Source: a virus (taxonomy: Duplodnaviria > Caudoviricetes). From it: DNA of 60,463 bases. Under the pieces are notes generated by a model, which worked only from the letters and a program-made list of their open reading frames with translations, was not told the origin of the DNA and searched no databases. Every line of letters begins with the position of its first letter. Within the stretch, counting starts at the first letter, position 1. Positions 1,367 to 44,600 of the stretch are shown one piece after another. The position numbers and the translations under genes were made by a program. Location: positions 1 through 60,463 of the IMG/VR virus record IMGVR_UViG_3300011335_000321; one strand, given 5' to 3'.

Positions 1367-3967
1367 TTAAGCTACTTTAACGATAATTCTGGCTCTGCCA
1401 TCTGCTTCAATAGCGATAACTTTACCAACGGATGATTGATATTGTTCAAATGTTGGGTTGCTTACTGCTTGACCTTTGATTGCACCATTGTCATTGACTG
1501 GAATTATGTATTGACCAGCAGTTGCGCCTGTAACATTAACTGGAACTTGTCCTGCAAAAGCAATGCGATCAACAGTCTGACGGGCGACTTCTAAATCATT
1601 TTCTTCAAGATCGCCACCCCATTTGTCATTACCAACATATGAGGGGTCTGTTGACTTCACAACAAAAGACACAGCATTGGCAAACACATTAGTCAACTTG
1701 CCTTGTGAATCAATACCAACCACATCACCTTTGGCAACAGTAAAGTCGCCAGATTTAGTCATGTATTCAGCATAGTCAGCACATGAAGCATTGATAGTTC
1801 CTGCCGCATTGATTGACGGACCAGTTGCGCCAACACTCCACACTTTTAATGGAGCATTTGCGGCATTAGGTGTACCGCCATCTCCATTGTAAAAAATACA
1901 ACCAACATTATTACCAATAACCTCAAGAACAGCATTTCCAACAGCAACAGCTTTCTTTATTTGATGGTTACTTCCACTCGTAGTACCCACTAGCAAATTA
2001 CCAGATGTGTCTATACGGCAACGCTCCGATGGCAAAAAGGCAGTTCCAATAGTCAGCCCAGAATTGGTTGAAAACCACATAGAACCGTCAGGATCATAGT
2101 GAGTACCTGAAGATCCTGTTCTAACAGGCATAAAAGTAAAACTGTTGTCGTAATACGCATTGTTTTGCATATACGCACCAACTGCGTCAGCAACAGCACC
2201 CGCATAAAGGATTTGATTTCCAGAACCACCCTTTAATTCAAGTTGTTTAAAAGACCCAGCAGGACCATGCACAGTTAAGTTAGTAGCAGGTGAACTTGTA
2301 CCAATACCAAAATTACCAGATGTGTCTATACGGGCACGTTCTGCGTTTCCAGTTACAAAACCAACAGGATGGCTACTTAGCGAGCCTATCTTTATATAAT
2401 CATTAGAGCTATCTACGCCACCAATATAAGTCTTTGTGCCATCGTAGGCTTGATAAAAGTTGGTTGTTGCTCCACGACTTAACAACACTCCCAAATCGTT
2501 ACCACCACCGCCATTTCCAATTGTCAAATTGGTGGTAGCGTTTGTTGTTCCAACTAATAGCCGACCACTAGCATCCAGAGTCATTGCCTGAGTAAAGGTA
2601 ATGGCGTTTCCTGCTGTGCCTGATGGGGCTGTTGACCAAGTATGCGCGCCTGACTGTTGTAAATACTGTGTTGCGTTATAGCCTGTGGTTTTGTATTTAG
2701 CGCCACTATTAAAATAAGCATTTGATAAAATTGCTAAATAATTACCGCCACCAGAAATAAATGCTTCTGATTTCAAATCTAAAGAAGTTAAACCACTTCC
2801 CCAAGCACTAGGAGTAACTCCTAATCCAAGGTTGCCAGAGCCATCAAGCCTCATTTTTTCGGTGGAATCGGACGCAGTTACATCAGGCCCTGTATTTGTA
2901 TAAAACGCCAAGGATGTGTTGTTGTACCAATTAGGAGAGCCTGATACTGCAACTACTCTTGCACCTGCGGATGAACTTGCTCCAGTACCACCTTTGTTTG
3001 AAAGCGAAAGTGAAGCCGCAATAGTATTTGCTGATGTAGTGTTGTTGTGAATTACAGCAACACCGTAAACATCCAACTTCTCGGCAGGTGAACTTGTACC
3101 AATACCTAGACCTGTAGAGGTTAGGCGCATTTGTTCTGAGCCTCCAACACCCCAAGATTGGATGCCTGTAATACCAGCAATACGATAATTTTCTATTGCC
3201 GCACCAACATCGTAAAAAACTAAACTTCTTGACCCACGCTCGATATAAATACGCTGTGTTCCAGTATCAGCAAGAAAGTTCAGTTGCGTGTCTGTTGATT
3301 TGCTTCCAGAGCCTAAGTTGGCATTTCCAGTTGTTCCAAAGTTAGTCCCATCAAAAGTAAGCGCAGAGCCACTTGTAACAACTTTAGAGCCGTTTAAATA
3401 AGTAACACCATTGGCAGTGCCTGCTGACAACACTGGGTTGGAAACAAATGAAATAACGCCTGTGCTGTTGGCAATCGATGCGGCAGCTGTTCCATCAAGC
3501 GCCCTAATGTTTGTGACTTCAAGGTTGGTCACATCAAGGGTTGTAAACACCGCCGAGCCGCCCGTATTGCTGACCTTCACAAAGTCAGAACCATTCCATG
3601 CACAGACAGCAGACTCACCAGCAACAATCGTCACGCCCGTAGTCGGGCCAGCGCCTACCAACTTAACGGAGAAGCCGCCTGTGGTGGCGTTGATGACTGT
3701 GTAAATCTTTGACTGCGCTGGGGCTGTAACCGTACGTAATGCCGTACGTGCGCCTGAGAAGAGCAGGATCGCCTGACGAGCCGTGTTCGCAGCGCCTGTG
3801 GTTGTGGTCAGTGTGACATCTGTATCAGTGCTGACGTTGGTCGTACCCGCAACAGAGGTGTCAAGCAGGGATGTAATGCTGTTGTTTACCGTATCACCCC
3901 ATGTGCCGCTCAGTTCGCCCGTGACTGGCAGTGCCAGACCCAAGAGTGATGTGTATGCTGTAGTCAT
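1367..3967 (-). CDS. Tail fibre / receptor-binding protein with a C-terminal chaperone-like domain
   Basis: 866 aa, Gly/Ser/Thr-rich; repeated MRLD.SGN.GIGT-type modules; C-terminal ADYAEY...GQVPV segment typical of auto-cleaved fibre chaperones. Confidence 0.85.
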   Translation of the reverse strand: MTTAYTSLLGLALPVTGELSGTWGDTVNNSITSLLDTSVAGTTNVSTDTDVTLTTTTGAANTARQAILLFSGARTALRTVTAPAQSKIYTVINATTGGFSVKLVGAGPTTGVTIVAGESAVCAWNGSDFVKVSNTGGSAVFTTLDVTNLEVTNIRALDGTAAASIANSTGVISFVSNPVLSAGTANGVTYLNGSKVVTSGSALTFDGTNFGTTGNANLGSGSKSTDTQLNFLADTGTQRIYIERGSRSLVFYDVGAAIENYRIAGITGIQSWGVGGSEQMRLTSTGLGIGTSSPAEKLDVYGVAVIHNNTTSANTIAASLSLSNKGGTGASSSAGARVVAVSGSPNWYNNTSLAFYTNTGPDVTASDSTEKMRLDGSGNLGLGVTPSAWGSGLTSLDLKSEAFISGGGNYLAILSNAYFNSGAKYKTTGYNATQYLQQSGAHTWSTAPSGTAGNAITFTQAMTLDASGRLLVGTTNATTNLTIGNGGGGNDLGVLLSRGATTNFYQAYDGTKTYIGGVDSSNDYIKIGSLSSHPVGFVTGNAERARIDTSGNFGIGTSSPATNLTVHGPAGSFKQLELKGGSGNQILYAGAVADAVGAYMQNNAYYDNSFTFMPVRTGSSGTHYDPDGSMWFSTNSGLTIGTAFLPSERCRIDTSGNLLVGTTSGSNHQIKKAVAVGNAVLEVIGNNVGCIFYNGDGGTPNAANAPLKVWSVGATGPSINAAGTINASCADYAEYMTKSGDFTVAKGDVVGIDSQGKLTNVFANAVSFVVKSTDPSYVGNDKWGGDLEENDLEVARQTVDRIAFAGQVPVNVTGATAGQYIIPVNDNGAIKGQAVSNPTFEQYQSSVGKVIAIEADGRARIIVKVA

Positions 3968-11010: not shown

Positions 11011-11613
11011 TCACGGCGTTTCTGTGTGTGCAACAAGTTTGTTGGACTTCTTTAAATTTTCTTCTTGCGTGATAACACGCAAGTTCCATGGCACATGCAG
11101 GCCACACACTATGGGGTTGATTAACGGCACTATGTGATCTACAACATACCGCTCCCCCGTAATTTTTGTAAGTTGTGCGGCTTGTTCATAAAGATGCCGC
11201 ATCGTCTGCTTCTGCACCTTTGTGATCCAAGGTGGTGTTGCGTTACGGTGGCGGCGCTTGCGTACATTATTCAAAGTTGTGTAGTACTCAGGAAACTTTT
11301 CTTTATGTCTACGTTTGTAGTTTTGTTTTTCTTCTAAAGGGCGTGCGTTTGCTCTGGCAACCACGGTTTCTTTGTTTCGCTTGTAGTACTCCTGCTTAGC
11401 GGTTACGCCAGCGTCAGACTTGTTGTATTGACGAAAGTATTCGGCGCGTTCAACACTACCCTTGGCCCATTCGACTTTCAAACACTCAACACACGCGCCT
11501 TTAGTTTTGCGTGGGGCTATGTGCCCGTGTTTGCATGGCTGTCCAGTGAAATAGTACTTACTGCCGGTTTTCTTTGCTTCTTCCCGTGTGGCGGGCATGT
11601 TGGATGTGTCCAT
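11011..11613 (-). CDS. HNH homing endonuclease
   Basis: ATG 11613 after AGGAGAA; CKHGH...CVEC N-terminus; VDHIVPL....CGLHVPWNL..IT..EN..KSN. Confidence 0.92.
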   Translation of the reverse strand: MDTSNMPATREEAKKTGSKYYFTGQPCKHGHIAPRKTKGACVECLKVEWAKGSVERAEYFRQYNKSDAGVTAKQEYYKRNKETVVARANARPLEEKQNYKRRHKEKFPEYYTTLNNVRKRRHRNATPPWITKVQKQTMRHLYEQAAQLTKITGERYVVDHIVPLINPIVCGLHVPWNLRVITQEENLKKSNKLVAHTETP

Positions 11614-13272: not shown

Positions 13273-13722
13273 TTATTTAGAACCAGAACCAAACCCACCA
13301 CGAGTTGTTGACGACTTGCGTTCGGCAAACAACGGCATGCGTGAGTCATTTTGTCGCATGAAGCTATTGTCTACTGAGTCCATCTGGTTTTGAGCTTGCT
13401 GGTTATAGTACTCATCACGGGCTTCCGCTTTTTCTCTGGCTATCTTGCAAAGCATGAGGCCACCGATTTCCACGTTCCCAGATTTTTCATTACCCATCAT
13501 CATCAATTCCGGATGGTCAGCTGCCTTCACCGGCTCCCAACCTTCACGCATTCTGCGTGATACATTGGTCACTTCCGACTGTCCCAGCACATGAGTCGCT
13601 ACCCAGCGATACACGTAGCCCGGTTCAGGCGTTGGATCAGGCAAGTTTGTCGGCGGTACGTATACAGCACGAGCAGATTTTTCGCGTGACACCAAGTCAC
13701 GATTTGTACGGTTTTCAGCCAT
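13273..13722 (-). CDS. Conserved head-module protein
   Basis: YRW......G....NV..R.REGWEPV...IGGLMLCK; between scaffold and capsid. Confidence 0.75.
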   Translation of the reverse strand: MAENRTNRDLVSREKSARAVYVPPTNLPDPTPEPGYVYRWVATHVLGQSEVTNVSRRMREGWEPVKAADHPELMMMGNEKSGNVEIGGLMLCKIAREKAEARDEYYNQQAQNQMDSVDNSFMRQNDSRMPLFAERKSSTTRGGFGSGSK

Positions 13723-17898: not shown

Positions 17899-19440
17899 CT
17901 AATAGTATGCGTACGACTTGCGGCGGAAGTAATCAGGGTCATCCTTCGCATCCGTGTTCAAAGTGATAAAGCCGCCTTGCCTAAAGCGTAGCAGCGCCTG
18001 TGTGGTCGTGTCCACGAAGTCATCGTGCTCCCCAACTGGGAAAGCCGCCATCTCTTCGATCACTTCTCGTGCCCATCGTGTGTCCGGTGCCCAGACCATG
18101 CCAGAGGCAAACAAATCAGCCACTGCGTTTAATCGTACCATCTTGTCGTTGCCACGGCTAGGGTTTGTTTCCTGCACAGGAATGTCCATGGCCCGCAGTT
18201 CTTGGATCAGTGGCGCACCAGCGGCCTTCTTCTCCACGATAAACGCGTCTGGCTCCCACTCTTTGTAGTGCTTAAGCGCTGTGGCCTTCAGATCGGGGAA
18301 CGTCATGCGGTCTTTGAACGCATCCAAGAGAATAATCTGCGTTGCGTCCTTCTCTTCTTCGTTGAAAAACACGCCCCATGTGGTGCACGCTGAATAGTCA
18401 GAGTTATTCTTGGTCTCAAACGCCGTATCCCACGACTGAATGACGTAGTCGCACTGCGGTGGGTCTTCGTGCTCCCATATTCGCCACATCTTGCGCCCAA
18501 CGATGGCCGAATTCTCAGAAGTGGGCTGCTGCATGTACTGCGCGTTCCAATACCTAGGCTCAATGGACGCTTTTGTTGCTTTAAGCGCGGTCAGTGGCCA
18601 CTGCTCAGGCCACAATGACTTCTCGTCCTCGGTGTCTTCGTGCAATATGGCCGGAAGCTCCACAATTTCCCAAGGAATGGCTTCTGGGTTGCGTGCTTGG
18701 TAGTCAATCAGGCGCCCAGTGAGGTCTAACAGCGACCATCTGGTCATAATCACAATGATCGCACCACCGGGCATCAAGCGCTGAAGTGGGCCAGTCTGGA
18801 ACCAAGACCATGCAGTGTCAAACGCAAGGCGGCTATTGGCTTTTACGTCCTGTTCAGAGTGTGGGTCATCAATAACGAACAGATCAGCACCACGACCGGC
18901 CAGTGCACCGCCCACACCAGCAGCATAGTACTGACCGCCAGCAGAAGTCGACCACTTTCCTGCGGCTTTTTGGTCATCTGCCACCATTGTTTGAGGAAAA
19001 ACTTCACGGTACTCCTCCGACTCGATCAAATTTCGCACCCTACGGCCAAAGTCCTCAGACAGACCCGCGGTGTGCGTGCCCATGATAATTTTCTTATTAG
19101 GGTATTTACCTAGGAAGTACGCAGGGAACAGGTATGAGCTGAACTCAGACTTACCCATACGTGGCGCAATGTTGATAATCACGCGCTTTTTCTTGCCCTC
19201 GACCACATCTGTGAAGATTTTGGCAAGCTTCCTGTGGTGCGGCCCGATCTTAAAGCCCGGATAGACGCTCTGAGCAAACCCCAGCATGTTTGTTTTGGCC
19301 GCTTGCAAGCTAGCGCGGGCTTCGCGCATCTCCAAGTCTTGGAAGAGCTCCATCTTTTCTTGCAGTGTCATGTGCGGAAGCGCTTTGGCCATGGCCTCGA
19401 GCTCCAGCTTGCTGAGCGTTGTGAACTTCTCAGTCTTCAT
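17899..19440 (-). CDS. terL: Terminase large subunit
   Basis: Walker A APRMGKS, Walker B FVIDDP, coupling motif MTRW, RNase H-like SWDTA and HDDFVD; ATG 19440. Confidence 0.95.
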   Translation of the reverse strand: MKTEKFTTLSKLELEAMAKALPHMTLQEKMELFQDLEMREARASLQAAKTNMLGFAQSVYPGFKIGPHHRKLAKIFTDVVEGKKKRVIINIAPRMGKSEFSSYLFPAYFLGKYPNKKIIMGTHTAGLSEDFGRRVRNLIESEEYREVFPQTMVADDQKAAGKWSTSAGGQYYAAGVGGALAGRGADLFVIDDPHSEQDVKANSRLAFDTAWSWFQTGPLQRLMPGGAIIVIMTRWSLLDLTGRLIDYQARNPEAIPWEIVELPAILHEDTEDEKSLWPEQWPLTALKATKASIEPRYWNAQYMQQPTSENSAIVGRKMWRIWEHEDPPQCDYVIQSWDTAFETKNNSDYSACTTWGVFFNEEEKDATQIILLDAFKDRMTFPDLKATALKHYKEWEPDAFIVEKKAAGAPLIQELRAMDIPVQETNPSRGNDKMVRLNAVADLFASGMVWAPDTRWAREVIEEMAAFPVGEHDDFVDTTTQALLRFRQGGFITLNTDAKDDPDYFRRKSYAYY

Positions 19441-20011
19441 CGGACTTCTCTTCAGACACATCAACCACATCAATCACGCCCATGAACCTATTGAGCTTGT
19501 CCTTGATGCGGGTCTCAAGCTCTACGTCCGTCATCTCAGTCTTCTTAACCTCAACACGCTCTGTAAAGAGCGCCACTTCCGTAACCTTACCCAACATGTC
19601 TAGCGCCTTGAGCCGGATACGGGCGTCTGGGTGTTCTACTTCTTCGAGGATCTTAGCCACGGCAAAACCGCGCAGTTCTTTGGCCTGCTCCACAAACGCC
19701 CAGTCGTAGGCTGTGAGCATTCCCACTAGGTGCTGGACTGCCGCTGGAGCTTTGACGGATGTTAGCGCTTGTTGTGTTGTTGCAACGGACTGGCCTGTGA
19801 CTAGGCTTGCAAAAGACTTACGCGCTGCTTGGGCGTCTGCCTTGGTTTCAATTTCTTCATCATCTAACCCCAAGTCCTTGAGCCAGTCTGCCGTCTTGAC
19901 TTTGGCGTCGATCGTAGTTGTGGGGTCAGCTTTGTCAAACGGCAAAAGCGTAGCCGCAGTCATGTCGACCACGTCTGGGTGAAATTCGCCGTGAATAAGA
20001 TGTTCTAGCAT
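19430..20011 (-). CDS. Probable terminase small subunit
   Basis: First late gene, overlaps terL; RLKALDMLGK motif. Confidence 0.7.
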   Translation of the reverse strand: MLEHLIHGEFHPDVVDMTAATLLPFDKADPTTTIDAKVKTADWLKDLGLDDEEIETKADAQAARKSFASLVTGQSVATTQQALTSVKAPAAVQHLVGMLTAYDWAFVEQAKELRGFAVAKILEEVEHPDARIRLKALDMLGKVTEVALFTERVEVKKTEMTDVELETRIKDKLNRFMGVIDVVDVSEEKSDED

Positions 20012-20058
20012 TGCGTAGGTTGGCACCGGAGCTGCCCCTACGGGCGCTCACTTGGCGC

Positions 20059-20087
20059 TTGTTGCCTCGTTGCAGTTAGTGTACACT
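20059..20087 (+). promoter_or_regulatory. Sigma70-like promoter of the predicted sRNA
   Basis: TTGTTG-17 bp-TACACT; shares the palindrome AGTGTACACT with the late promoter. Confidence 0.5.
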
Positions 20088-20107
20088 TCTTTTCGGCAAT
20101 GGTGCAA
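20078..20107 (-). promoter_or_regulatory. Sigma70-like promoter of the late operon
   Basis: TTGCAC-18 bp-TACACT on the minus strand. Confidence 0.6.
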
Positions 20108-20180
20108 GTTTTTTGTTCTGTTGCTTCTCCTTGAGGTTCGCCTCCTTGTGGCCCCGGTCTAACCACCGGGGCTCTTTTTT
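20094..20180 (+). ncRNA. Predicted anti-Shine-Dalgarno small RNA
   Basis: Bounded by a promoter and a terminator; contains UUGCUUCUCCUUGA, the reverse complement of the early-gene RBS consensus TCAAGGAGAAGCAA. Confidence 0.6.
20151..20180 (+). terminator. Rho-independent terminator with no upstream plus-strand gene
   Basis: GCCCCGGU-CUAACC-ACCGGGGC-UCUUUUUU. Confidence 0.85.
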
Positions 20181-20188
20181 ATGGGCAA

Positions 20189-20204
20189 TGTCAAACCTTG
20201 GACA
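20189..20204. promoter_or_regulatory. TGTC-N8-GACA operator-like box, copy 1
   Basis: TGTCAAACCTTGGACA; near-identical boxes at 27098 and 36248. Confidence 0.55.
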
Positions 20205-20536
20205 AGAGTCTTTGAAAATTTTTATAGTGGGGTGGGGGGTGGCGTTTTGGCGTTGGGGAAAATGAGTTTCTGTATTGAGGGGGTGGGGTTTGAGATTTTG
20301 AAAAATTGTATTTGCGGGTGAGGAACAGTGTTCACGTGACGACCTGCCGCCCCCTTGATTTAGGGGGGATGGGAGTGGGGTGGGGTTCGCCAAAACCCGA
20401 AAAACTAGGCAAAAAACGATTCAGACTGCATCGTTTTGGGGTAGCTCAACCCCTATCGGAAGGGGGTGTATGCACAATGGAGACAGCCAATAGGGATTCG
20501 CCCTGAGGCAACAATGACATTTCAAGGAGAAACACC

Positions 20537-20920
20537 ATGTCAAAACAAAACGAAACCAAAGCCTTTGCAGTACTCAACAAATTCGCTGACTCTCGTGTAG
20601 CGCTTATCCAAGGCATGAAGGATGCAGGATTCGAGACAATCGAGGAGTGCGAGCCCATCGTCATCAAGTGGGCGTGTGCCAAGGTAGGCGCTGAGTGGCA
20701 GATCAAGGCGGAGAAGGTTCGCTTCGTCAGCACACACCCAAAGTACAACACGGCAAAGACTGTCAAGAATGACATCATGCTCATGCTCAAAGGCACGACA
20801 CGCCATGCACAATCAAACGGCAAGGCTGAACCTGCTGACAAGGTCACAAAGATTATTGAAGCTTTCAACAAGCTCACACCCGCAGAGCAACGCAAGGTTT
20901 TGAAGGCGCTGTCTGCATGA
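20537..20920 (+). CDS. Early hypothetical protein
   Basis: 127 aa, SD TCAAGGAGAA; first gene of the plus arm. Confidence 0.85.
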   Translation: MSKQNETKAFAVLNKFADSRVALIQGMKDAGFETIEECEPIVIKWACAKVGAEWQIKAEKVRFVSTHPKYNTAKTVKNDIMLMLKGTTRHAQSNGKAEPADKVTKIIEAFNKLTPAEQRKVLKALSA

Positions 20921-20953
20921 ATCCGATTCAGACTGAATCGCTTTTCCCCCCGA

Positions 20954-20990
20954 ACCGCACAAGAGAGAGGCTTGTGCGGTGTTTCATTTC
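20954..20990 (+). terminator. Hairpin / probable terminator
   Basis: ACCGCACAAG-7 nt-CTTGTGCGGT followed by GTTTCATTTC. Confidence 0.6.
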
Positions 20991-21040
20991 TTGTCCAATG
21001 CGTTTACACGCAAACCCTAAACCACTTCAAAGGAACCATC

Positions 21041-23174: not shown

Positions 23175-23205
23175 ATCTTTTTATATAACTCAAGGAGAAA
23201 ATCAA

Positions 23206-27119: not shown

Positions 27120-27139
27120 ATCAACTCAAGGAGAAAATA

Positions 27140-29603: not shown

Positions 29604-29880
29604 TTTCTCAATGACCGAAGCTGAACTTGAGCGCAGAGTACACGCCATGTCAGACGAAGAGCAAGCCCACTTCAAGCTACTGATCCACAAACTGGTGATG
29701 TGCTACGGAGAAGGCAAGGCACAGGGCGTGGTCATCATTGGCCGCGCTGAAGATCAATTGGCAGGAGTCGTTACCCTAAACTGTAACGAGATGGAGGCGT
29801 CGCAGCTCATGCTGGCGGCAAACGATTTTTTCGGCTTTCTAAACCTGTTAGACGCACCACCAAAAGAAAACTTTAACTGA
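29590..29880 (+). CDS. Hypothetical protein
   Basis: SD GGAG; operon-packed. Confidence 0.72.
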   Translation: MLEADFSMTEAELERRVHAMSDEEQAHFKLLIHKLVMCYGEGKAQGVVIIGRAEDQLAGVVTLNCNEMEASQLMLAANDFFGFLNLLDAPPKENFN

Positions 29881-29890
29881 AGGAGAAGCA

Positions 29891-30121
29891 ATGGCAAAAC
29901 TACCATACACATACACAATCTGCTCCGACCAAGAGGCACCGAAGAATTTCACCGCCAGTTGTAAAGACATGGGTGAGTTGCTACGGCACAGCCCCAACGG
30001 GGATTTAACCATTAACCAAAAGCGCACAGCCGCATGGGACATGTGGTCAGGCAATCACATGGGGCACATTGAGGAAGCGTTGCATGAGATGGCGAAGAAG
30101 GAAAAACCCAATGACAAGTGA
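29891..30121 (+). CDS. Hypothetical protein
   Basis: SD AAGGAGAAG. Confidence 0.72.
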   Translation: MAKLPYTYTICSDQEAPKNFTASCKDMGELLRHSPNGDLTINQKRTAAWDMWSGNHMGHIEEALHEMAKKEKPNDK

Positions 30122-30299: not shown

Positions 30300-30715
30300 C
30301 TAAAGACGAAGCATTGAAGCTGGCGCTGGAGGCGTTGGAGGAGGCTTGGTATCACGTTGGCACATTTCAGCCAACCGAGAAAGCAATAGACCTGTATGAC
30401 GAAGCAAGAACCGCCATCAAAGAAGCCTTGGCACAGCCAGAGCAGGATGGGAAGTGCAAATACTGCACAGATGGTTGCCCCGCTTGTGACGCTAGGAAAT
30501 TACCAGAGCGAGAGCGTTTTCTTGTTGCTACTATTGGAAACTGGGGGCGTGTTGAATGGGCTGATGGAGTTTTTCCATCACTCGGAGACAAGATGTATTC
30601 AGCCCCACGCACATGGGTTGGGCTGACGGAAGATGAAGCGTTTGCCTGTCAAGGGCGTGACTACTTTGAAACCTACAAAGCCATTGAAGCCAAACTCAAG
30701 GAGAAGAACACATGA
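30296..30715 (+). CDS. Hypothetical protein ending in the WVGLT...AIEAKLKEKNT module
   Basis: ATGA coupling; C-terminus shared with the 30825 and 31157 genes. Confidence 0.75.
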   Translation: MTKDEALKLALEALEEAWYHVGTFQPTEKAIDLYDEARTAIKEALAQPEQDGKCKYCTDGCPACDARKLPERERFLVATIGNWGRVEWADGVFPSLGDKMYSAPRTWVGLTEDEAFACQGRDYFETYKAIEAKLKEKNT

Positions 30716-30828
30716 ACATTGACCCGTTTTCTTTTTTTGTTGGGGTAGGAATTGCCATTTTTGCAAGACTGTGCATTATGGTGACAGACGCAATTATTGA
30801 AAAAATAAAAGAGGAGAAGAACACATGA
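30712..30828 (+). CDS. 38-aa membrane peptide; not in the ORF track
   Basis: MNIDPFSFFVGVGIAIFARLCIMVTDAIIEKIKEEKNT; SD and ATGA overlaps. Confidence 0.6.
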   Translation: MNIDPFSFFVGVGIAIFARLCIMVTDAIIEKIKEEKNT

Positions 30829-31160
30829 CAGACTGGACACCTGAAGAAGACGAAGCTTTCAACATGGTTGAAAAGAACAGCAACCTTGGCAAGCAGATAC
30901 TGCGTGACATGGGGCAGCCTTATTACTTTGACCCATCCAACGGCACGATAAGCAAGGACAAGAATGATCCGCGGTTCACACCGCTGGGGCAACTGTGGCC
31001 TGTGTCTATCAAGCGTGAGTGGGTTGGGCTGACAGATGAGGAAACAGTTGCAATTGAGTTGGGTTTAAGAATTCCTACTGGTTATCGGGATGCTTACGAC
31101 TTGTCTTTGCAAGATTTTGCCCGAGCCATCGAAGCCAAACTCAAGGAGAAGAACACATGA
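30825..31160 (+). CDS. Hypothetical protein ending in the WVGLT...AIEAKLKEKNT module
   Basis: SD AGGAGAAG; shared C-terminus. Confidence 0.75.
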   Translation: MTDWTPEEDEAFNMVEKNSNLGKQILRDMGQPYYFDPSNGTISKDKNDPRFTPLGQLWPVSIKREWVGLTDEETVAIELGLRIPTGYRDAYDLSLQDFARAIEAKLKEKNT

Positions 31161-31435
31161 CAGCTGCATACTTTGAAGACCCCCCAACAGACCCTGATAA
31201 ATGGGTTTTGCGTAAGCCACGGCTTGACCAAGGGCCAGACTACGAGCGCGGGTTTATTGACGGCATGATGTACCAGACGCAGACCAGCGTGTACAGGGCA
31301 GTCGATGCAATGGCAAAGCGCCCATGGGTCAACCTGACCAGCGAAGAGATCGGTGAAATCTACCGAGTCGGGTGGGCTAACAACATGGAACTGGCCCGAG
31401 CAATAGAAGCAAAACTAAAGGAGAAGAATGAGTAA
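31157..31435 (+). CDS. Hypothetical protein ending in the WVNLT...AIEAKLKEKNE module
   Basis: SD TCAAGGAGAAG; shared C-terminus. Confidence 0.75.
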   Translation: MTAAYFEDPPTDPDKWVLRKPRLDQGPDYERGFIDGMMYQTQTSVYRAVDAMAKRPWVNLTSEEIGEIYRVGWANNMELARAIEAKLKEKNE

Positions 31436-33413
31436 ACCATACGACACGATCTTAACGATCGACTTCGAGACCTATTGGGACACCAAGATAGGTTACACAC
31501 TAACAAAAATGACAACTGAGGAGTACATACGCCATGACTTATTTCACGCGTTTGGATGCTGCGTTCATGAGTTCGGATCTGACAGCCCAACTACGTGGGT
31601 TAGAGGAGATGGACTACGTGAATACTTTTCTGGAATCGACTGGGGACGAACCGCTGTGCTTGCGCACAACGCACAGTTCGATGTATCCATTATGGAGTGG
31701 CGCTACGGCGTATCACCCTGCTTCATCTTCGACACCCTATCAATGGCGCGAGCTCTCAGAGGCGTTGAGGTTGGCAACAGTCTCGCCAAACTTGCAATCG
31801 ATTTTAATCTTCCCGCCAAAGGGACAGCCGTATACAGCACCAATGGTGTGGCCGAGTTGGACGAGGTCATGGAATCTGAACTATCGGACTATTGCAAACA
31901 CGACGTATATCTATGCGAGCGAATCTTTGCACGCTTGGTCAATGGATACCCGTCCAAGGAACTCCGACTGATTGACATGACCCTCAAGATGTACACCCGT
32001 GCATGCCTTGAGCTTGACCCCAACATGCTGACCGATGCCATACTAGATGAAAGAGAAAAACGTGAAGCCCTATTACAAAAGCTCGGCGTGGACGAAACTG
32101 CTCTGGCGTCGAACCCGCAGTTTGCTGCACTCCTTGAGAAACTCAATGTGGTTCCGCCAACCAAGACAAGTAAGACGACTGGGAAAGAGACGCTTGCACT
32201 CGCTAAAAACGATGCCCTATTTCAAGCGTTACTCAACGGTGAACGTGAAGACGTTGCCCTACTTTGTGAAGCGCGTCTTAAGGTTAAATCTACCACTGAG
32301 CGCACCCGTGCGCAGCGCTTCTTGGACATCAGCCAACGTGGCCCGCTTCCAGTTCCGCTATCGTACTATGGTGCACAGACAGGCCGCTGGACAGCGAGCA
32401 AAGGCTCGGCCATCAACATGCAAAACCTCAAGCGAGGCTCGTTCCTTCGTAAAGCGATTATGGCTCCCGAAGGTCACCAACTCGTCGTGGGCGACCTATC
32501 GCAGATTGAACCGCGAGTGCTTGCGTGGCTTTCAGATTACACAGACATGCTTGACATCTTCAGGGCTGGAGGCGACCCTTACGCCGCGTTCGGTTCGCAG
32601 ATGTTCAACATACCCGGACTCACTAAGGAATCTCACCCTGACCTTCGGCAGTCTGCGAAGAGCGCGCTCTTGGGTTGTGGCTACGGACTTGGCTGGGCTG
32701 CATTCGCTTCCCAGTTACTCACAGGGTTCCTCGGGGCGCCTCCACAACGTTACGACTTGGGCTTTGCGAAGAAACTCGGGGTCACACAAGCCGCCGCGCA
32801 AAAGTTCCTCGACTGGGAAGTCAACGCTGAGAAGCTCCAAGGGATACCGCATACCTGTACAACCAAGGAGCTAGTCATTCACTGCTTGGCGGCCAAGGCC
32901 ATCATCGACAAGTACAGGGCTACGGCTACGCCTGTGGTGGACTTCTGGGACTTGAACACCCAGCTTATCGGTGAGTGCCTGTACAAGGGGCGTGAGTACA
33001 AGCACAAGTGCCTGATCTACCGCAAGGGGGAGATTGAACTGCCCTCGGGCATGAAGCTGTTGTATCCAGACCTCAACATCAGGCGCTACAAAGACGAGAA
33101 AACAAATAAAGAACAACTGGAGTGGACATACGGGCCAGATCGTACTAAGATATACGCAGGAAAAATAACCAACAATGTCACGCAGGGCGTAGCGAGATGC
33201 GTGATGACTGATGGGATGGTGCGTACTGCGAAGAGATACTTCGTGGCGGGAACAGTACATGACGAACAGATCGTTGTGGTTCCTGACGCTGAAGTTGCAG
33301 AAGCTAAGACTTGGGTCTTGGCGCAGATGACTATGGAGCCGCCTTACATGCCGGGCATTCCACTAGACGCTGACGGTGGTGCACATCGTCGTTATGGGTT
33401 AGCAAAAAACTAA
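31428..33413 (+). CDS. polA: Family A DNA polymerase with 3'-5' exonuclease
   Basis: ExoI DFET, ExoII HNAQFD, ExoIII YC..D; TGRW; motif A DLSQIE.R, motif B RQSAKSALLGCGYG, motif C VHDE. Confidence 0.95.
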   Translation: MSKPYDTILTIDFETYWDTKIGYTLTKMTTEEYIRHDLFHAFGCCVHEFGSDSPTTWVRGDGLREYFSGIDWGRTAVLAHNAQFDVSIMEWRYGVSPCFIFDTLSMARALRGVEVGNSLAKLAIDFNLPAKGTAVYSTNGVAELDEVMESELSDYCKHDVYLCERIFARLVNGYPSKELRLIDMTLKMYTRACLELDPNMLTDAILDEREKREALLQKLGVDETALASNPQFAALLEKLNVVPPTKTSKTTGKETLALAKNDALFQALLNGEREDVALLCEARLKVKSTTERTRAQRFLDISQRGPLPVPLSYYGAQTGRWTASKGSAINMQNLKRGSFLRKAIMAPEGHQLVVGDLSQIEPRVLAWLSDYTDMLDIFRAGGDPYAAFGSQMFNIPGLTKESHPDLRQSAKSALLGCGYGLGWAAFASQLLTGFLGAPPQRYDLGFAKKLGVTQAAAQKFLDWEVNAEKLQGIPHTCTTKELVIHCLAAKAIIDKYRATATPVVDFWDLNTQLIGECLYKGREYKHKCLIYRKGEIELPSGMKLLYPDLNIRRYKDEKTNKEQLEWTYGPDRTKIYAGKITNNVTQGVARCVMTDGMVRTAKRYFVAGTVHDEQIVVVPDAEVAEAKTWVLAQMTMEPPYMPGIPLDADGGAHRRYGLAKN

Positions 33414-33422
33414 GGAGAAGCA

Positions 33423-33728
33423 ATGAGATTACCAACGCGTATGCGTGTGGGCAAGAGGTGGTACAGCGTGGAGGTGGTGGAAGCCATGCTTCACCGCAGG
33501 GACATGGGGCGTACGTTCTACCCAGAAAACTGTATCCGTCTTGGCAAAGCCAGCAACGTGACAGGCCGCAAGTTCACCAAGAACGAGATGGCCGATACGT
33601 TCTGGCATGAGGTCGTCCACGCCATACTTGAAGACATGGGACAGCATGAGCTTAACAACAACGAGGCGTTCGTCACACAGTTCGCCAACCGATTAACAGT
33701 AGCAATCAAGACTGCGAAGTTCGAATGA
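33423..33728 (+). CDS. Small HExxH metallopeptidase-like protein
   Basis: TFWHEVVHAILE...NEAFV. Confidence 0.72.
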   Translation: MRLPTRMRVGKRWYSVEVVEAMLHRRDMGRTFYPENCIRLGKASNVTGRKFTKNEMADTFWHEVVHAILEDMGQHELNNNEAFVTQFANRLTVAIKTAKFE

Positions 33729-41449: not shown

Positions 41450-41612
41450 AAAGGGGCAGGGGTTTTTTGTCCCCTGCCTCGACACGGACGCGGTGCGTGA
41501 ACTAGGCTTAAAGAAAGCCACCCTCAGTAGGATACTGGATGCCCGCGCTATTGCAGGCATCCAGAACGGTTTTACTGGGGTTTGGTTTTATCGAAAACCT
41601 CCCGCACAGTAG
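41409..41612 (+). CDS. Small conserved protein, last gene of the early arm
   Basis: SD GGAGG; FPW......GFFVP motif; overlaps the convergent late gene end. Confidence 0.7.
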   Translation: MKVSSIQFPWTKVEKGQGFFVPCLDTDAVRELGLKKATLSRILDARAIAGIQNGFTGVWFYRKPPAQ

Positions 41613-44600
41613 TCGCTATCCTGATCTTTGTCTGACGGATATTGTCAAGGCGCTCACGCTTCTCTTCTGGGGACATGTTAGACGCTCTGATGGCTGCTTC
41701 TGCTTTGGTCAGCATGTTCATCTGCTGAGTGATGTTGCCCGCCATCGTTGACTGCGCGTACAGCGTGATGTTCTTTTGCAAGTACTCCGTAGCCTCAGCG
41801 CGTCTGCCTTCCTTGACCAAGTTGTTAAACGTCTTTTGGACTTGCTGTGCTTCTTTCAAATGCTCGTACATATCGCTAAGTCTGCCGCCGGCATCTTCAG
41901 GCTGGAACAAACCACCAAATACAGGCGTGTCAGACAAGCGCTTGGCGGCTCGTTCTGGTGAGCCAGTGGTAGGCACGGCCATGCTGACAGCCTGTAAGAA
42001 CGCAATACCCATACCGCCTGTGTAACCGCGCACAAGGTTCTCTACCTTGATAGGCGAGACGTCAAACATCTTGCCGATGCCTTTGGCAATCTCTGTTGTG
42101 TTGTCGCGGTAGCGGTACGCAGGCTCAACCATCTGCTCTTTAGCAGACTCGATCTGACGGCCACTAAAGAAAGAGTAGCCAGTCACGTTCTCAACCATAG
42201 GTTTGACAGCTTGGGGCAGCAGCAACGAGGAGCCACCGGGGATGGTCTGAAGCGCAATAGACTTGAACGCCTTGAACGCTTCTTCACCGCCACGTTCTGA
42301 ACTCATTGTGTTGATGATAGCTTCGGGGATACCCTTGAAGATGTAGCCAACCTCAAACGGCACAGGGATACGCAACGCGCCTTCCATGCCGGGCACATGC
42401 ACAAAGAAGTTACCGTACTTCTCTTCGGGGTTTGCATTTTTGTACGTCTCATCATCCTGCATGAGCAAGGTGTACGCCACGGCTGTAAGCGCCAGCAAAG
42501 ACCCACGTTGAAGCAACTTGCTCTGAATGGCCAAGCGCTCGTTCATGGGCATCTTGCCAGCAAATGCGCGGTACAAAACGTCCAAACTCTGCAACTGTGC
42601 GTTGAAGAACGGGATCATTTTGGAGGCCAACGCCACGCTTGGGGACACGCCACGGCGGTTAAAGTTCATGGACTCCAGAGACATCAGCGTGGCTTCCATC
42701 TCAGACAAGCCCTGCTCAAGGTAGCTGTTGTACTGGGCGCGGCGTGTAGCGGCATCCGCTTCCATCGACAAGCCTTCGGCTTTGCTAATTAGTGTTGACC
42801 AGTTCATGGTCTTGCCTGCTTGCAGATCGCGTAGGATTTTAGTCAGGTCTTCGTTCGTGCCAGTGAAAATCTGACCGCCTGTGATACCGCGGCGCTCAAG
42901 CTTGTTCTTTGTAGCAGACGCGCCCATCTCTTTAATTGCGCCCATGACAGGAACAAAGTTAGCGCCAGACAGCAACGGGGCTGCTACAGAGTCGCGCACT
43001 AGCTGACGGAACGCATACAGCGGCGAAATCGTAACGGCCCTACGCAAGAACGTAGCGGGCATGCCCATGACAGCCACCACACCACTGTTGTTAATTGGTA
43101 TGCCCTCCATGCCCTTAACCAGCAAATCTGACGGGATGCCCAACTCGTTGGTGGCTACTTGCACGTACTTTTCAACACCCTTGTCTTTGAACGACACGAT
43201 GTCCTTGCCGGATGTGGCAGTGCCAAGGAAGTTTGCCAGTTTCAAACCAACCAACTCGTACATGGCGTTCTTAGCGGCAAGATTGCGCAGGGACATGTCA
43301 ATCAGCATCGATGTGTTTTGCACAGAGCTAGTCATGAAGTCGAGCACTTTTTCTTCGCCGCCAATCAACTCTTTCAAATAGGGCTGCTCACGCAGGTTAC
43401 CAATTTTGATTGTGCCCTCACCGCCAATGACCAACACAGCGTTGCCGTTTTGTTCGCGGTAGTATGGGATGTAGTCGTTGCTGGCAGACAAGCGAGCGCC
43501 TTCTTCTGGTGTGATAGAGCCGCAGTCGATGGCCAGCTTGATTAAGTTTTTGTTGTAGCTGTTGTACTCGTCACGGGCTTTTGTAAACACATCACGCACA
43601 GGCTTGTCGCCATCAATCTGCTTAACCACAGCGCGAAGCTCGGCTTCTGGCACTTTAAAGTTCAGCTTGTCGTAACCCAAACGCTCGGCACGTTTACCCA
43701 GCAGGTACATGGTGAACAGCTTGTTGGCGGCTTCAGCGTTCATGTTGGGCGTGTCTTTGAGGATACCCACCACGCTTGCCAAGCTTGGGCCTTCCACGCT
43801 TTCAATGATGTACTCTGTGCGACCATCTTCACGCTTTTTAGCCACACGCTGGGGCACACCAAAGCCTACGGCCTGTTGTGTGTATGACATACGCTGATCA
43901 TACATACGCAAGTAGTACATCATTTGCATGCCCTTAAGCGGCTCAAGCATCTCGTTGGCCACTTTCTCAAGCGGTGCCAAACGATCAAGCACTTGGGTGC
44001 GGAAAGCCAAGCCAAGGTTAGCCTCAACCCGCTGACGGATTGTCTTAGGCGAAGCAATGATCTGGTCAACAGTCTCAAGAGCGCTCTCGTAACCCGGAGC
44101 ACTTGGCTTGGGGGCGTAACGGATTGGATCGTCAGTTTCAGTCAACGCCTGTACAGGCGGTGCTTCGGCAATCATCTTGGGCGCTGTGATACTGCCTTCG
44201 TCTGCCCCGATCATGTCTGTAGAACTAAACAGGTCATTAAATCTAGCGCCGATAGACATGCCTTCTTTTAATGACAAATCTCCACCGCGGCTAAACAGCC
44301 CGCGTTTTTCCATTGACATTAAACCAAAGTATTCAGTGACGTTTTCTATGTTGACCGTGCCGCCATCAGCGTCAAGTCTGTCGTAGACATCATCCAAAAA
44401 CTTTTTATCTATTCGTTTGCCGGCATCGACAAAAAACCGATTCATGATTACAAGCGGCTCGGGTTCAAAATCCGCAAACGGCAAATCGTTGGTAAAGCGG
44501 TCTATACCGGACTCTTTTAATTTTTTCTTTAAAGCGGCTTGCAAACCACTGGCAATAGTGTGTGCAAGGCTGATTAAGTTGCCGTCATTTTTGAACACAT

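What the first reader, a model, noticed from the sequence alone, without database searches (positions are those of the whole stretch)
20059..20180. Candidate anti-RBS small RNA that could silence the whole early/replication arm
Seen: a ~85-nt non-coding plus-strand unit lies between a promoter (TTGTTG-17-TACACT) and a strong terminator (20151-20180). It carries UUGCUUCUCCUUGA (20121-20134) ahead of a GAGG-UUCG-CCUC hairpin. The reverse complement, TCAAGGAGAAGCAA, matches in 8-12 contiguous nt the RBS of ~15 plus-arm genes: 20522, 22461, 23190, 26103, 26988, 27126, 29880 (12 nt), 30696, 30812, 31141, 31418 (polA), 33412 (12 nt), 34645 (helicase), 36274 and 37769. Several matches reach the start codon. 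The late-gene RBSs I inspected (capsid TAAGGAGTA, portal TAGGAAC, TAAGGAAA, AAGAGGTA, TAAGGTAA) lack the GGAGAA extension; the exceptions are the HNH at 11613 and the gene at 13722. Inference: early mRNAs carry a common extended-SD address that one trans-acting sRNA occludes when late transcription starts. That would be an RNA-based early-to-late (or dormancy) switch in a phage with no evident CI/integrase. I do not know of this being described.
Basis: partly seen in the sequence, partly recalled or inferred. Interest (0 to 1): 0.92.

Follow-up and report, generated by a model that had tools for sequence, protein, structure and literature searches.

The report
Conserved phage anti-RBS small RNA
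A small structured RNA gene, kept in a large family of uncultured phages, exposes a sequence that can pair with the ribosome-binding sites of the phage's early genes and of its terminase leader; whether it silences them is untested.

Summary
Window 20059-20180 (+) carries a promoter-like pair (TTGTTG-17-TACACT), three hairpins and an intrinsic terminator. The same unit sits between terS and the early promoter in more than 100 related IMG/VR contigs.

All 50 unique copies folded form SL1, an unpaired UUCUCCUU, SL2 and a terminator. The stems covary: 93.5% of cells pair against 84.3% when shuffled, and 11 of 25 pairs change on both sides. Many G-U pairs make the fold specific to the plus strand.

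TTGCUUCUCCUUGA is invariant in 77 of 77 copies that were selected by the promoter alone. No Rfam family reaches its threshold.

The early/late asymmetry is also real. Sixteen of 41 early start regions, and 0 of 41 late ones, match the seed over 8 or more contiguous nt.

The "global early-to-late switch" is not shown.
- No expression timing is known.
- I found no seed/RBS covariation across clades.
- GGAGAA-type early RBSs also occur in sister clades whose sRNA lacks that extension.
- The seed's complement is itself an SD+ATG at the head of terS in most relatives, so the sRNA may act in cis.

Verdict: a genuine new phage sRNA family with an anti-Shine-Dalgarno seed. Its targets are unresolved.

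The parts
20058..20072 (+). Conserved -35 region, CTTGTTGCCTCGTTG (TTGTTG at 20059-20064)
   Evidence: Nearly invariant across 58 unique relatives; the exceptions read GTGGCC or GTAGCC. Unique in the window.
20078..20087 (+). Palindrome AGTGTACACT that holds the -10 hexamer TACACT (20082-20087)
   Evidence: The hexamer is TACACT, or TACAAT in the more divergent relatives. The 3-6 nt of spacer just upstream vary freely. Unique in the window.
20094..20180 (+). Predicted sRNA transcript, about 87 nt; the 5' end is inferred from the -10 hexamer
   Evidence: Fold z = -4.1. Covariance model hits in 78 of 78 sources. Pair counts.
20095..20125 (+). Stem-loop 1
   Evidence: Seven outer pairs are 99.2% paired across 72 distinct sequences, and every variable site keeps its pair through G-U. 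In the common short form the stem closes on a GCAA tetraloop.
20121..20134 (+). Invariant seed UUGCUUCUCCUUGA; the unpaired core is UCUCCUU at 20126-20132
   Evidence: Present in 58 of 58 unique copies and in 77 of 77 chosen by the promoter alone. Mean unpaired probability 0.87, minimum 0.77, over 50 copies.
20133..20144 (+). Stem-loop 2 (GAGG-UUCG-CCUC)
   Evidence: Swapped for GAUGG...CCAUC, GAGGA...UCCUC or GAGG-GAAA-CCUC in relatives, and the pairs are kept by changes on both sides.
20150..20180 (+). Intrinsic terminator: stem 20150-20173 followed by a U-tail
   Evidence: Seven of 10 stem pairs change on both sides among relatives. The T-run lies on the plus-strand side in every copy in the alignments.
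20121..20134 (-). SD-like TCAAGGAGAAGCAA on the terS strand; the window has no start codon behind it
   Evidence: In relatives it is followed by ATG. Of 108 unique loci, 38 have a uORF that stops 9 nt before the terS ATG, 16 are fused in frame to terS, 23 have no start, and the rest use other frames.
19430..20026 (-). Small terminase gene (the ATG at 20011 is the likely start), first gene of the late arm
   Evidence: ORF list. It lies directly upstream of the terL gene, which matches PHROG phrog_38. It has 4266 homologous clusters. terS itself gave no PHROG hit.
20186..20228 (+). Palindromic operator-like site over the -35 of the early promoter (TGGACA-18-TATAGT, 20199-20228); context, not part of the sRNA
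   Evidence: Conserved in relatives as ATGTCCAACGTTTGACAT.
20522..20535 (+). RBS of the first early gene; 10 nt complementary to the seed
   Evidence: TCAAGGAG is held by at least 80% of 87 unique relatives, while the flanks vary.
29878..29891 (+). Early RBS with a 12-nt match that runs into the ATG
33410..33423 (+). Early RBS with a 12-nt match that runs into the ATG
31141..31154 (+). Early RBS with a 12-nt match; one of four copies of a repeated linker (30696, 30812, 31141, 31418)

Best explanation
This is a genuine, independently transcribed phage sRNA of about 85-95 nt. It has its own sigma-70-type promoter, two hairpins and a Rho-independent terminator. A CU-rich anti-Shine-Dalgarno segment is always unpaired. 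Most likely it is a base-pairing translational repressor acting in trans: the exposed UUCUCCUU(GA), extended into UUGC, pairs with start regions of the (UC)AAGGAGAA(GCA) type and keeps 30S subunits off them. In this phage those start regions belong to about a third of the early genes, starting with the first early gene directly downstream. Late genes use shorter UAAGGA-type sites and escape.

Shown: the gene, its strand, its fold, the invariance of the seed and the early-specific complementarity.

Inferred: that the RNA is made, that it pairs in vivo, that pairing represses, and the timing of any of this.
For: Gene and strand:
- The promoter is conserved and its spacer is free to vary.
- All 50 unique copies folded give the same three-hairpin fold. 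The plus strand is more stable than its reverse complement in 49 of 50 (mean -35.3 against -26.5 kcal/mol).
- 93.5% of pair cells are paired, against 84.3% when shuffled (0 of 500 shuffles reach it) and 31-54% when the partners are slid. The covariation score is 0.321 against 0.164. Eleven of 25 pairs change on both sides.
- No other plus-strand gene lies upstream for the terminator to serve.

Seed under sequence constraint:
- It is invariant in 77 of 77 copies chosen by the promoter alone.
- That set includes 23 loci whose opposite strand has no start codon. Those 23 still show 12 different downstream segments.
- A purely cis-antisense RNA has no need for sequence invariance.

Sister clades (terS about 52% identical):
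- They carry a unit at the same position with an unpaired 5' CUCCUUCGUUGU or CUCCUCCGUUGU, and often ACCUCCUC in the terminator loop.
- In the L202/L204 type no start codon lies opposite the motif, and terS has its own SD outside the sRNA.
- The window-clade model finds 11 of 15 of these loci at the syntenic place (E from 8.6e-6 to 0.08).

Targets:
- 16 of 41 early and 0 of 41 late start regions match the seed over 8 or more contiguous nt.
- Shuffling the seed flanks while keeping CTCC reaches 16 in 1 of 1000 trials. Keeping TCTCCTT reaches it in 18 of 1000.
- Pairing energy to a generic 16S anti-SD tail (a short motif recalled from memory) does not differ between early and late start regions (p = 0.11).
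- The asymmetry repeats in 107 related loci: 163 of 536 early against 3 of 390 late. These loci are related, so they are not independent.
- TCAAGGAG of the first early gene is conserved in at least 80% of 87 relatives.

Cellular sRNAs with unpaired CU-rich anti-RBS stretches are known, for example RF02278 (passages read in PMC5688073). Such families are the best, though sub-threshold, Rfam matches here.
Against: - There is no transcript evidence with strand or ends. Only Logan contigs of relatives from three runs could be laid on the region.
- I found no covariation between seed and RBS. Cognate sRNA/RBS sets are not the best-pairing combinations across 8 loci.
- The first early RBS keeps CTCAAGG even in relatives whose sRNA reads UUGAUGG.
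- GGAGAA-type early RBSs exist in sister clades whose seeds match only AGGAG. The extended early SD is therefore not explained by the sRNA.
- Whole-molecule cofold energies are not seed-specific. Seed-shuffled control sRNAs bound early start regions as well or better (mean -10.5 against -9.4 kcal/mol).
- The seed's complement ranks only 5th of 36 early GGAG sites in similarity to the others. It looks like a typical member rather than a super-consensus.
- Four of the matches are duplicated linkers.
- A perfect cis target exists on the opposite strand.
Confidence: 0.4

Rival explanations
1. The sRNA is a cis-antisense regulator of the late operon. The late mRNA would start upstream of the sRNA gene on the minus strand. 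The sRNA would then be perfectly complementary to its leader and would block the SD+ATG that begins a short leader ORF or an N-terminal extension of terS. terS has no SD of its own in this clade, so its translation would depend on that upstream start. The logic is that of sok/mok-hok or of P22 sar/ant.
For: - In 81 of 106 classifiable unique relatives, the complement of the seed is TCAAGGAGAAGCAA followed by a start codon (ATG in the copies read).
- 38 of those are uORFs in the terS frame that stop 9 nt before the terS ATG, and 16 are fused in frame.
- Gene callers list N-extended terS forms of 218-219 aa.
- terS has no SD before its ATG in this clade (direct reading).
- The L213-type sister clade also has an SD+ATG opposite its sRNA, with a 23-codon uORF that ends just before terS.
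- Phage antisense RNAs against late or antirepressor genes are established: a review lists OOP, PaQ and sar (passage read in PMC5415839).
Against: - The window and 22 other unique loci have no start codon behind the SD, yet they keep the seed unchanged.
- Frames and lengths of the opposite-strand ORF are heterogeneous: 12 read into terS out of frame and 15 are other uORFs.
- The peptide changes freely (EKK, GNK, GNE, GID, ENN).
- In the L202/L204 sister type no start codon lies opposite the motif, and terS has its own SD outside the sRNA.
- The late transcription start is unknown, so overlap of the two RNAs is not shown.
- Cis-antisense pairing does not explain why the sequence is invariant.
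Confidence: 0.3
2. The sRNA acts in trans, mainly on host mRNAs with strong AAGGAG-type ribosome sites, or on one or a few specific phage genes. Its match to many early RBSs would be incidental. The early extended SD would exist for another reason, for example an S1/RegB-like recognition site or simply an optimal A-rich start region.
For: - The only motif shared by all clades is the generic CUCC(U) core.
- The early GGAGAA motif predates this seed.
- T4 early start regions share a long GGAG-plus-A-rich site, GGAGRAYARAA, which RegB with S1 recognises (passage read in PMC3014915).
- Lambda PreS is a phage sRNA that mainly targets host mRNAs (passages read in 10.1101/2024.10.31.621285).
- In L201, a 9-nt match (CACAACGAA) links the sRNA 5' end to the RBS of the homologue of the first early gene.
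Against: The host is unknown, so no host start region could be examined. A generic anti-SD would also hit the phage's own early mRNAs, which carry 8-12-nt matches. No RegB-like gene was sought.
Confidence: 0.12
3. The conservation reflects DNA-level function rather than a regulatory RNA. The region could be a divergent or overlapping promoter pair built on the palindromic -10, with a terminator that insulates the early operon. It could also be a terminase recognition (pac) region next to terS. The short transcript would then be a by-product.
For: - The most conserved block (20054-20109) is the promoter region rather than the seed flanks.
- AGTGTACACT gives a TACACT hexamer on both strands. In five divergent relatives both hexamers move towards the consensus, to TACAAT and TATACT.
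- The element adjoins terS.
Against: - Compensatory changes in three hairpins, plus-strand-only G-U pairs, a seed kept unpaired and invariant, and a U-tail in every copy are all RNA-level signatures.
- A -35 for the minus-strand promoter is absent in the sister clades (direct reading).
Confidence: 0.08
4. The functional product is a small protein of about 23 aa encoded on the minus strand (MTCAITEKKCTLT...), and the plus-strand features arose by chance.
For: An ORF with a strong SD+ATG exists in most relatives, and one of similar length exists in the L213 type.
Against: There is no start codon in 23 of 106 classifiable loci. At least three frames are used, stops occur in frame, and many changes are non-synonymous. 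In the window the ORF would have to start at a GTG inside the terminator stem.
Confidence: 0.04

Closest known systems
P1/P7 c4 antisense RNA (immI operon c4-icd-ant)
   Same: A small phage RNA encoded upstream of, and in the same direction as, the genes it controls. It is needed to repress a downstream gene of that operon (passages read in PMC8198154). That it pairs with the icd ribosome-binding region is my recollection of Citron & Schuster 1990, which I did not read.
   Different: As I recall, c4 is processed from the operon's own leader transcript. Here the sRNA has its own terminator, and a separate early promoter follows it. No Rfam match of any kind to a c4 family was listed at E <= 10. 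P1 is temperate, whereas no integrase was found here. The candidate targets here number about 16 rather than one.
P22 sar RNA / ant, and hok-mok/sok
   Same: Short cis-antisense RNAs that cover the start region of a gene, or of a leader ORF to which the real gene is translationally coupled. Here the seed is the exact complement of an SD+ATG that leads into terS in most relatives. A review lists sar as inhibiting anti-repression (PMC5415839). The coupling logic of mok-hok is recalled from memory.
   Different: The window itself lacks the start codon. Overlap with the late mRNA is unproven. The seed is invariant and also matches many unlinked start regions.
Cellular CU-rich anti-RBS sRNAs: Rfam RF02278 (Betaproteobacteria 'toxic' sRNA, ncS27 and relatives) and RF00519 (mmgR)
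   Same: [quoted passage not shown] Their predicted interactions concentrate on start regions (passages read in PMC5688073). These families give the best Rfam scores here.
   Different: The scores are far below the gathering thresholds (21.3 against 50; 24.5 against 41). Those sRNAs are chromosomal and bacterial rather than phage-borne. The architecture also differs: three hairpins here and two there.
T4 RegB (with S1) and RegA
   Same: A phage-encoded post-transcriptional shut-off aimed at early start regions. RegB cuts GGAG in early intergenic SDs that share GGAGRAYARAA, and most middle and all late mRNAs escape. RegA competes with ribosomes on about 30 mRNAs (passages read in PMC3014915). 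The early-only GGAGAA sites seen here echo that split.
   Different: Those regulators are proteins; here the candidate is an RNA. No homology is implied, and no RegB or RegA gene was sought in the window.
Lambda PreS and vibriophage VP882 VpdS
   Same: Trans-acting, phage-encoded sRNAs with an unpaired seed (passages read in 10.1101/2024.10.31.621285).
   Different: PreS acts mainly on host mRNAs such as dnaN and alaS, and neither seed is described there as an anti-SD. There is no sequence relation: a blastn search of the phage collection with 19400-21000 found nothing.

Membership tests
Rfam RF00519 (mmgR/suhB) | Covariance-model score at or above the gathering threshold (41 bits) | tested here: not met
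   24.5 bits, E = 0.033, at 20119-20188 (+).
Rfam RF02278 (Betaproteobacteria toxic sRNA) | Covariance-model score at or above the gathering threshold (50 bits) | tested here: not met
   21.3 bits, E = 0.3.
Rfam RF02278 (Betaproteobacteria toxic sRNA) | CU-rich anti-RBS stretch in an unpaired region | tested here: met
   UCUCCUU is unpaired in the minimum-energy fold. Mean unpaired probability is 0.87 over 50 copies.
Trans-acting base-pairing sRNA (Hfq-type architecture) | Own promoter and Rho-independent terminator with a U-tail | tested here: met
   The T-run of six or more is present in all 50 unique copies.
Trans-acting base-pairing sRNA (Hfq-type architecture) | Conserved, accessible seed set among covarying stems | tested here: met
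   Seed invariant in 77 of 77 copies. Covariation.
Trans-acting base-pairing sRNA (Hfq-type architecture) | Detected transcript, and chaperone or target binding in vivo | not testable with these tools
   Only contigs of relatives from three runs were available, with no strand or end information.
Cis-antisense RNA against a start region (sar/ant, sok/mok type) | The opposite strand carries a functional SD and start codon under the sRNA | tested here: inconclusive
   The window has an SD but no start codon. Among relatives, 81 of 106 have a start and 23 have none.
Cis-antisense RNA against a start region (sar/ant, sok/mok type) | The target mRNA is transcribed across the sRNA gene | not testable with these tools
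   The late transcription start is unknown. One candidate minus-strand promoter lies at 20334-20305 and another overlaps the -10 palindrome (direct reading).
P1/P7 c4-type immunity RNA | Complementarity to the ribosome site of the gene downstream in the same direction | tested here: met
   A 10-nt match to the RBS at 20522-20535, conserved as TCAAGGAG in at least 80% of 87 relatives.
P1/P7 c4-type immunity RNA | Sequence or structure homology to c4, and processing from the operon leader | tested here: not met
   No c4 family appears among the Rfam matches at E <= 10. The unit ends in its own terminator ahead of a separate early promoter.
   16 of 41 early against 0 of 41 late. 163 of 536 against 3 of 390 in relatives.
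   The seed is invariant within the clade. No cognate advantage appears across clades. Sister clades keep GGAGAA RBSs without a UUCUCC seed.
   The promoter motif is unique in the window and there are no time-resolved data.

The most novel reading that the evidence does not exclude
One phage sRNA acts as a global translational silencer of the phage's own early mRNAs. This would be an RNA counterpart of T4 RegA/RegB. Early genes carry (UC)AAGGAGAA(GCA) start regions, and an invariant anti-start-region seed occludes them. Late genes, with short UAAGGA-type sites, stay translatable. The same seed, read on the other strand, would gate the first late gene, terS. A single 14-nt sequence would then couple early shut-off to late onset across a very abundant lineage of uncultured aquatic phages.
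Probability: 0.2. Interest if true: 0.85.

Novelty: new variant of a known kind. Interest (0 to 1): 0.62.

Why it matters
Few phage-encoded regulatory RNAs have been characterised; the introduction of 10.1101/2024.10.31.621285 says so (passage read). No Rfam family covers this one.

The unit is kept at the junction of the early and late arms in a very large environmental phage lineage. That lineage has 4266 terS clusters at E <= 1e-5. I found more than 100 unique sRNA loci in IMG/VR, plus sister clades. The nearest cultured relatives are HTVC023P-type pelagiphages, with terL only 49-52% identical.

The case is unusually clean for testing. The seed is invariant, the candidate targets are listed, and there are two concrete mechanisms, in cis on terS and in trans on early RBSs. 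If the trans model holds, a lytic-type phage would use an anti-Shine-Dalgarno RNA to sort its own mRNAs by RBS type. To my knowledge that has only been described for protein regulators such as T4 RegA and RegB. My literature searches for such an sRNA found none, but the searched library is incomplete.

Tried and rejected
Searches and measures that gave nothing or were not usable as evidence:
- A blastn search of 19400-21000 against 50,697 phage records found no match.
- Public runs. Only three runs hold small shares (0.05-0.08) of the sampled words. When laid on the region they are Logan contigs of relatives, without strand or end information. One metatranscriptome has contigs over 19694-20104 and 20119-20338. 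In two runs the bin 20070-20136 has the highest depth in the intergenic region. The tool warns that contig depth cannot rank parts of a sequence, so I draw nothing from this.
- RNAalifold on the plain MAFFT alignment recovered only SL1 and part of the terminator, because indels misalign SL2. I replaced it with a model-guided alignment, which leans towards the given structure.
- Cross-clade cognate test. There was no diagonal advantage. The measure uses RNAduplex on whole sRNA bodies and is confounded by length.
- Whole-molecule cofold energies. Early sites bind better than late ones (mean -9.4 against -6.1 kcal/mol). However, seed-shuffled control sRNAs bind early sites at -10.5, so the measure is not seed-specific and I rejected it as evidence.
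- Centrality test. The seed's complement ranks 5th of 36, which is not decisive.
- A search for further copies of the sRNA promoter motifs, or of the conserved GGAACAGTGTTCA block, as a route to a late-promoter consensus. The counts were at chance level.
- Two cultured relatives (DSL-LC04 and 023Pt_psg01) showed no comparable unit by eye, by the terminator scan or by the model.
- The minus-strand small protein and a pac or DNA-only reading were considered and ranked low (see the rival explanations).
- Supplementary files of papers were closed and I did not ask for them. Supplementary transcript tables for HTVC023P-type phages (for example PMC12753301, seen only in a search listing) might bear on early/late classes.
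Full report
WHAT THE WINDOW IS. The window is a whole IMG/VR virus record of 60,463 bp, estimated 96% complete. A minus-strand late arm starts with terS (19430-20026; the likely ATG is at 20011). It continues with terL (17899-19473), the portal and capsid genes, and wraps around to 41572. A plus-strand early/replication arm runs from 20537 to 41449. The finding lies in the 510-bp gap between the two arms. The nearest cultured phages by terL are HTVC027P, HTVC023P, DSL-LC04 and 023Pt_psg01, at 49-52% identity.

All motifs are at the stated coordinates. The terminator has 9 pairs followed by a T-run. RNA 20094-20180 folds as SL1 (20095-20125), unpaired UCUCCUU (20126-20132), SL2 (20133-20144) and the terminator (20150-20173). 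The energy is -33.5 kcal/mol against -22.1 +/- 2.75 for shuffles, and 0 of 200 shuffles fold as well. The promoter matches the E. coli consensus only weakly, at about 7 of 12 positions by my count, and the scanner did not list it.

The complement of the 14-mer, with up to 3 mismatches, occurs 23 times against 7.05 +/- 2.63 expected (0 of 100 shuffles reach 23). Twelve of these hits lie at early ribosome sites.

IT IS A REAL, CONSERVED sRNA GENE ON THE PLUS STRAND.
- terS has 378 confirmed relatives in IMG/VR, of which the best 80 were kept, at 80-89% identity. In the wider protein collection it has 4266 clusters at E <= 1e-5.
- Among 95 loci that hold the region, 88 held it in full, giving 58 unique sequences. 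In these the -35 block CTTGTTGCCTCGTTG is almost invariant. The next 3-6 spacer bases vary freely. The -10 hexamer is TACACT or TACAAT.
- SL2 and the terminator are replaced by different but self-complementary sequences.
- A T-run always follows on the plus side. TTGCTTCTCCTTGA never changes.
- To avoid selecting on the seed, I scanned IMG/VR with the promoter alone. All 77 unique downstream segments carry the 14-mer.
- Fifty unique copies all give the same three-hairpin fold, with the seed unpaired (mean probability 0.87, minimum 0.77). The plus strand folds better than its reverse complement in 49 of 50 (-35.3 against -26.5 kcal/mol).
- A covariance model built on these copies hits 78 of 78 sources. 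On its alignment 93.5% of 1763 pair cells are standard pairs. The figure is 84.3% after shuffling (0 of 500 reach the observed value) and 31-54% with slid partners. The covariation score is 0.321 against 0.164, and 11 of 25 pairs change on both sides. This alignment is fitted to the model, which favours the structure.
- Several SL1 pairs are G-U in most sequences. They would be A-C mismatches on the other strand.
- No Rfam family reaches its threshold. The best sub-threshold matches are anti-SD-type sRNAs: RF00519 at 24.5 of 41 bits and RF02278 at 21.3 of 50 bits.

THE FAMILY REACHES BEYOND THE WINDOW'S CLADE. I took a terS representative only 52% identical to the window's (P0123) and used it to fetch 17 loci.
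- All 15 loci with enough upstream sequence show a GC hairpin plus T-run on the strand opposite terS, 113-158 nt from its start.
- I folded nine of them. Each has a sigma-70-like promoter, an unpaired 5' CUCCUUCGUUGU, CUCCUCCGUUGU or ACCUUCGUUGU, a hairpin, and a terminator whose loop often reads ACCUCCUC. The L213 type instead carries an internal unpaired UUUUCUCCUAUG.
- The window-clade model finds 11 of 15 loci at that place (E from 8.6e-6 to 0.08). It finds none in the two cultured relatives.
- An exposed CUCC(U) anti-SD motif is therefore the family-wide feature.

THE EARLY/LATE ASYMMETRY IS REAL.
- With automatic start calls, 12 of 38 early and 0 of 41 late start regions match the seed over 8 or more contiguous nt (Fisher 5e-5). 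Pairing to a generic 16S tail (a short motif recalled from memory) does not differ between the two arms (p = 0.11).
- I corrected two start calls and added three short ORFs. The count then became 16 of 41 against 0 of 41.
- Shuffling the seed flanks while keeping CTCC gives a mean of 2.5 matching early sites and reaches 16 in 1 of 1000 trials. Keeping TCTCCTT gives a mean of 8.4 and reaches 16 in 18 of 1000.
- In 107 related loci the counts are 163 of 536 early against 3 of 390 late. These loci are related, so they are not independent.
- The early GGAG sites have the consensus ACTCAAGGAGAA. The late ones have no flank consensus.
- Four of the window's matches are copies of one repeated linker.

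(i) No data show that the RNA is made, or when.
(ii) The seed is invariant, so covariation cannot be seen within the clade. Across eight loci from different clades, cognate sRNA/RBS sets do not pair best. The first early RBS keeps CTCAAGG even where the sRNA reads UUGAUGG.
(iii) Sister clades have GGAGAA(t/a)cA-type early RBSs, but their seeds match only AGGAG. The early motif is older than, and independent of, this seed. T4 offers a protein-based precedent for an early-specific GGAG-plus-A-rich site, GGAGRAYARAA, recognised by RegB with S1 (passage read in PMC3014915).
(iv) Cofold energies for the whole sRNA are not seed-specific, because the seed-shuffled controls bind as well.

On the terS strand the seed reads TCAAGGAGAAGCAA. 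In most relatives ATG follows directly. Of 108 unique loci:
- 38 have a uORF in the terS frame that stops 9 nt before the terS ATG, and terS has no SD of its own in this clade;
- 16 are fused in frame to terS;
- 12 read into terS out of frame;
- 15 have other uORFs;
- 23, the window among them, have no start codon;
- 2 are too short to classify and 1 is unclassified.

The peptide is poorly conserved. If the late mRNA starts upstream of the sRNA gene, the sRNA is a perfect antisense to this start region. That is the logic of sok/mok-hok or of sar/ant.

Three points argue against this being the whole story. The 23 start-less loci keep the seed unchanged although their neighbouring segments differ. 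The L202/L204 sister type has no start codon opposite the motif and has a separate SD for terS. Antisense pairing by itself does not demand sequence invariance.

JUDGEMENT. I put the odds that this is a functional plus-strand sRNA at about 0.9. For its action I rank the readings as follows:
- a trans-acting anti-start-region repressor whose likeliest targets are AAGGAGAA-type early RBSs, first among them the gene directly downstream: 0.4;
- cis-antisense control of the terS leader: 0.3, and not exclusive of the first;
- mainly host or other specific targets: 0.12;
- a DNA-level element: 0.08;
- a minus-strand peptide: 0.04.

COMPARISON WITH KNOWN SYSTEMS.
- It works like the CU-rich anti-RBS sRNAs of bacteria (RF02278; passages read in PMC5688073). 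It also works like phage antisense regulators such as P1 c4 (passages read in PMC8198154), and P22 sar, lambda OOP and PaQ (list in PMC5415839).
- It is not a member of any Rfam family tested.
- Phage-encoded trans-acting sRNAs are still few; PreS and VpdS are examples (passages read in 10.1101/2024.10.31.621285).
- My two literature searches for a phage sRNA with an anti-SD seed acting on early genes listed none. The library lacks most subscription journals, so this is weak evidence of absence.

LIMITS. The host is unknown. Supplementary files of papers were closed.

Noticed in passing
window 20186-20203 (relatives): A near-palindrome, ATGTCAAACCTTGGACA, directly after the sRNA terminator. 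It is conserved in relatives as the perfect 18-mer ATGTCCAACGTTTGACAT. It overlaps the -35 of the early promoter (TGGACA-18-TATAGT, 20199-20228) and looks like a repressor operator.
   Followed up: partly
window 20228-20245, 20279-20289, 20362-20386: Conserved G-rich tracts (GGGGTGGGGGGTGG, GGGGGTGGGG, GGGGGGATGGGAGTGGGGTGGGG) on the plus strand, in the roughly 300-nt leader before the first early gene. A G-rich tract (GGGGAGGGTGGG) also lies in the equivalent gap of phage 023Pt_psg01. I do not know their function.
   Followed up: no
window 20296-20335; L204, L207, L210, L215: A block containing AACAGTGTT, preceded by GCGG(G)TGTG, is conserved in the window clade and is recognisable in sister clades. 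It could be a regulator site or an unusual promoter on either strand. The 13-mer is not repeated above chance in the window.
   Followed up: partly
window 20027-20053; L087, L092, L062: The window and a few relatives carry an extra segment of about 20 nt with a GC hairpin (GCGCCC-GTAG-GGGC...) between the sRNA promoter and terS. In the window it supplies a possible GTG start at 20026. Sister clades have a palindromic hairpin (GCGCTATATAGCGC type) at the same spot, directly before the terS SD.
   Followed up: no
relatives L047, L023, L077, L075, L055, L031 and others; proteins P0028, P0094: terS exists in two forms across the clade. One has an in-frame N-terminal extension of about 27 aa that starts at the strong SD+ATG opposite the sRNA seed. 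In the other, a TAA sits three codons before the internal ATG (TAA against TAC). This suggests termination-reinitiation, or an extension that is dispensable.
   Followed up: partly
window early arm, e.g. 23188-23199, 27124-27135, 30694-30705, 31139-31150: The early GGAG ribosome sites share a 5' extension, ACTCAA, that neither 16S pairing nor the sRNA of most relatives explains. Together with the A-rich 3' side it recalls the long RegB/S1 site of T4 early mRNAs (PMC3014915).
   Followed up: no
window 30670-30720, 31115-31165, 30795-30830, 31395-31433: A repeated linker, GCCATYGAAGCCAAACTCAAGGAGAAGAACACATG. It encodes the C-terminus of one small gene and holds the SD and start of the next.
   Followed up: yes
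window 41572-50037 (-): A 2821-aa ORF at the end of the late arm. Only its last 660 residues or so match PHROGs, and those families have unknown function.
   Followed up: no
L201 (sRNA about 3869-3932, minus strand in the locus; early gene at position 835 of the reversed arm): In this sister clade the sRNA 5' end (ACCUUCGUUGUG) has a 9-nt match (CACAACGAA) to the RBS region of the homologue of the window's first early gene. The proteins share a C-terminal LTPAQ/EQR motif. This hints at a specific conserved target.
   Followed up: partly
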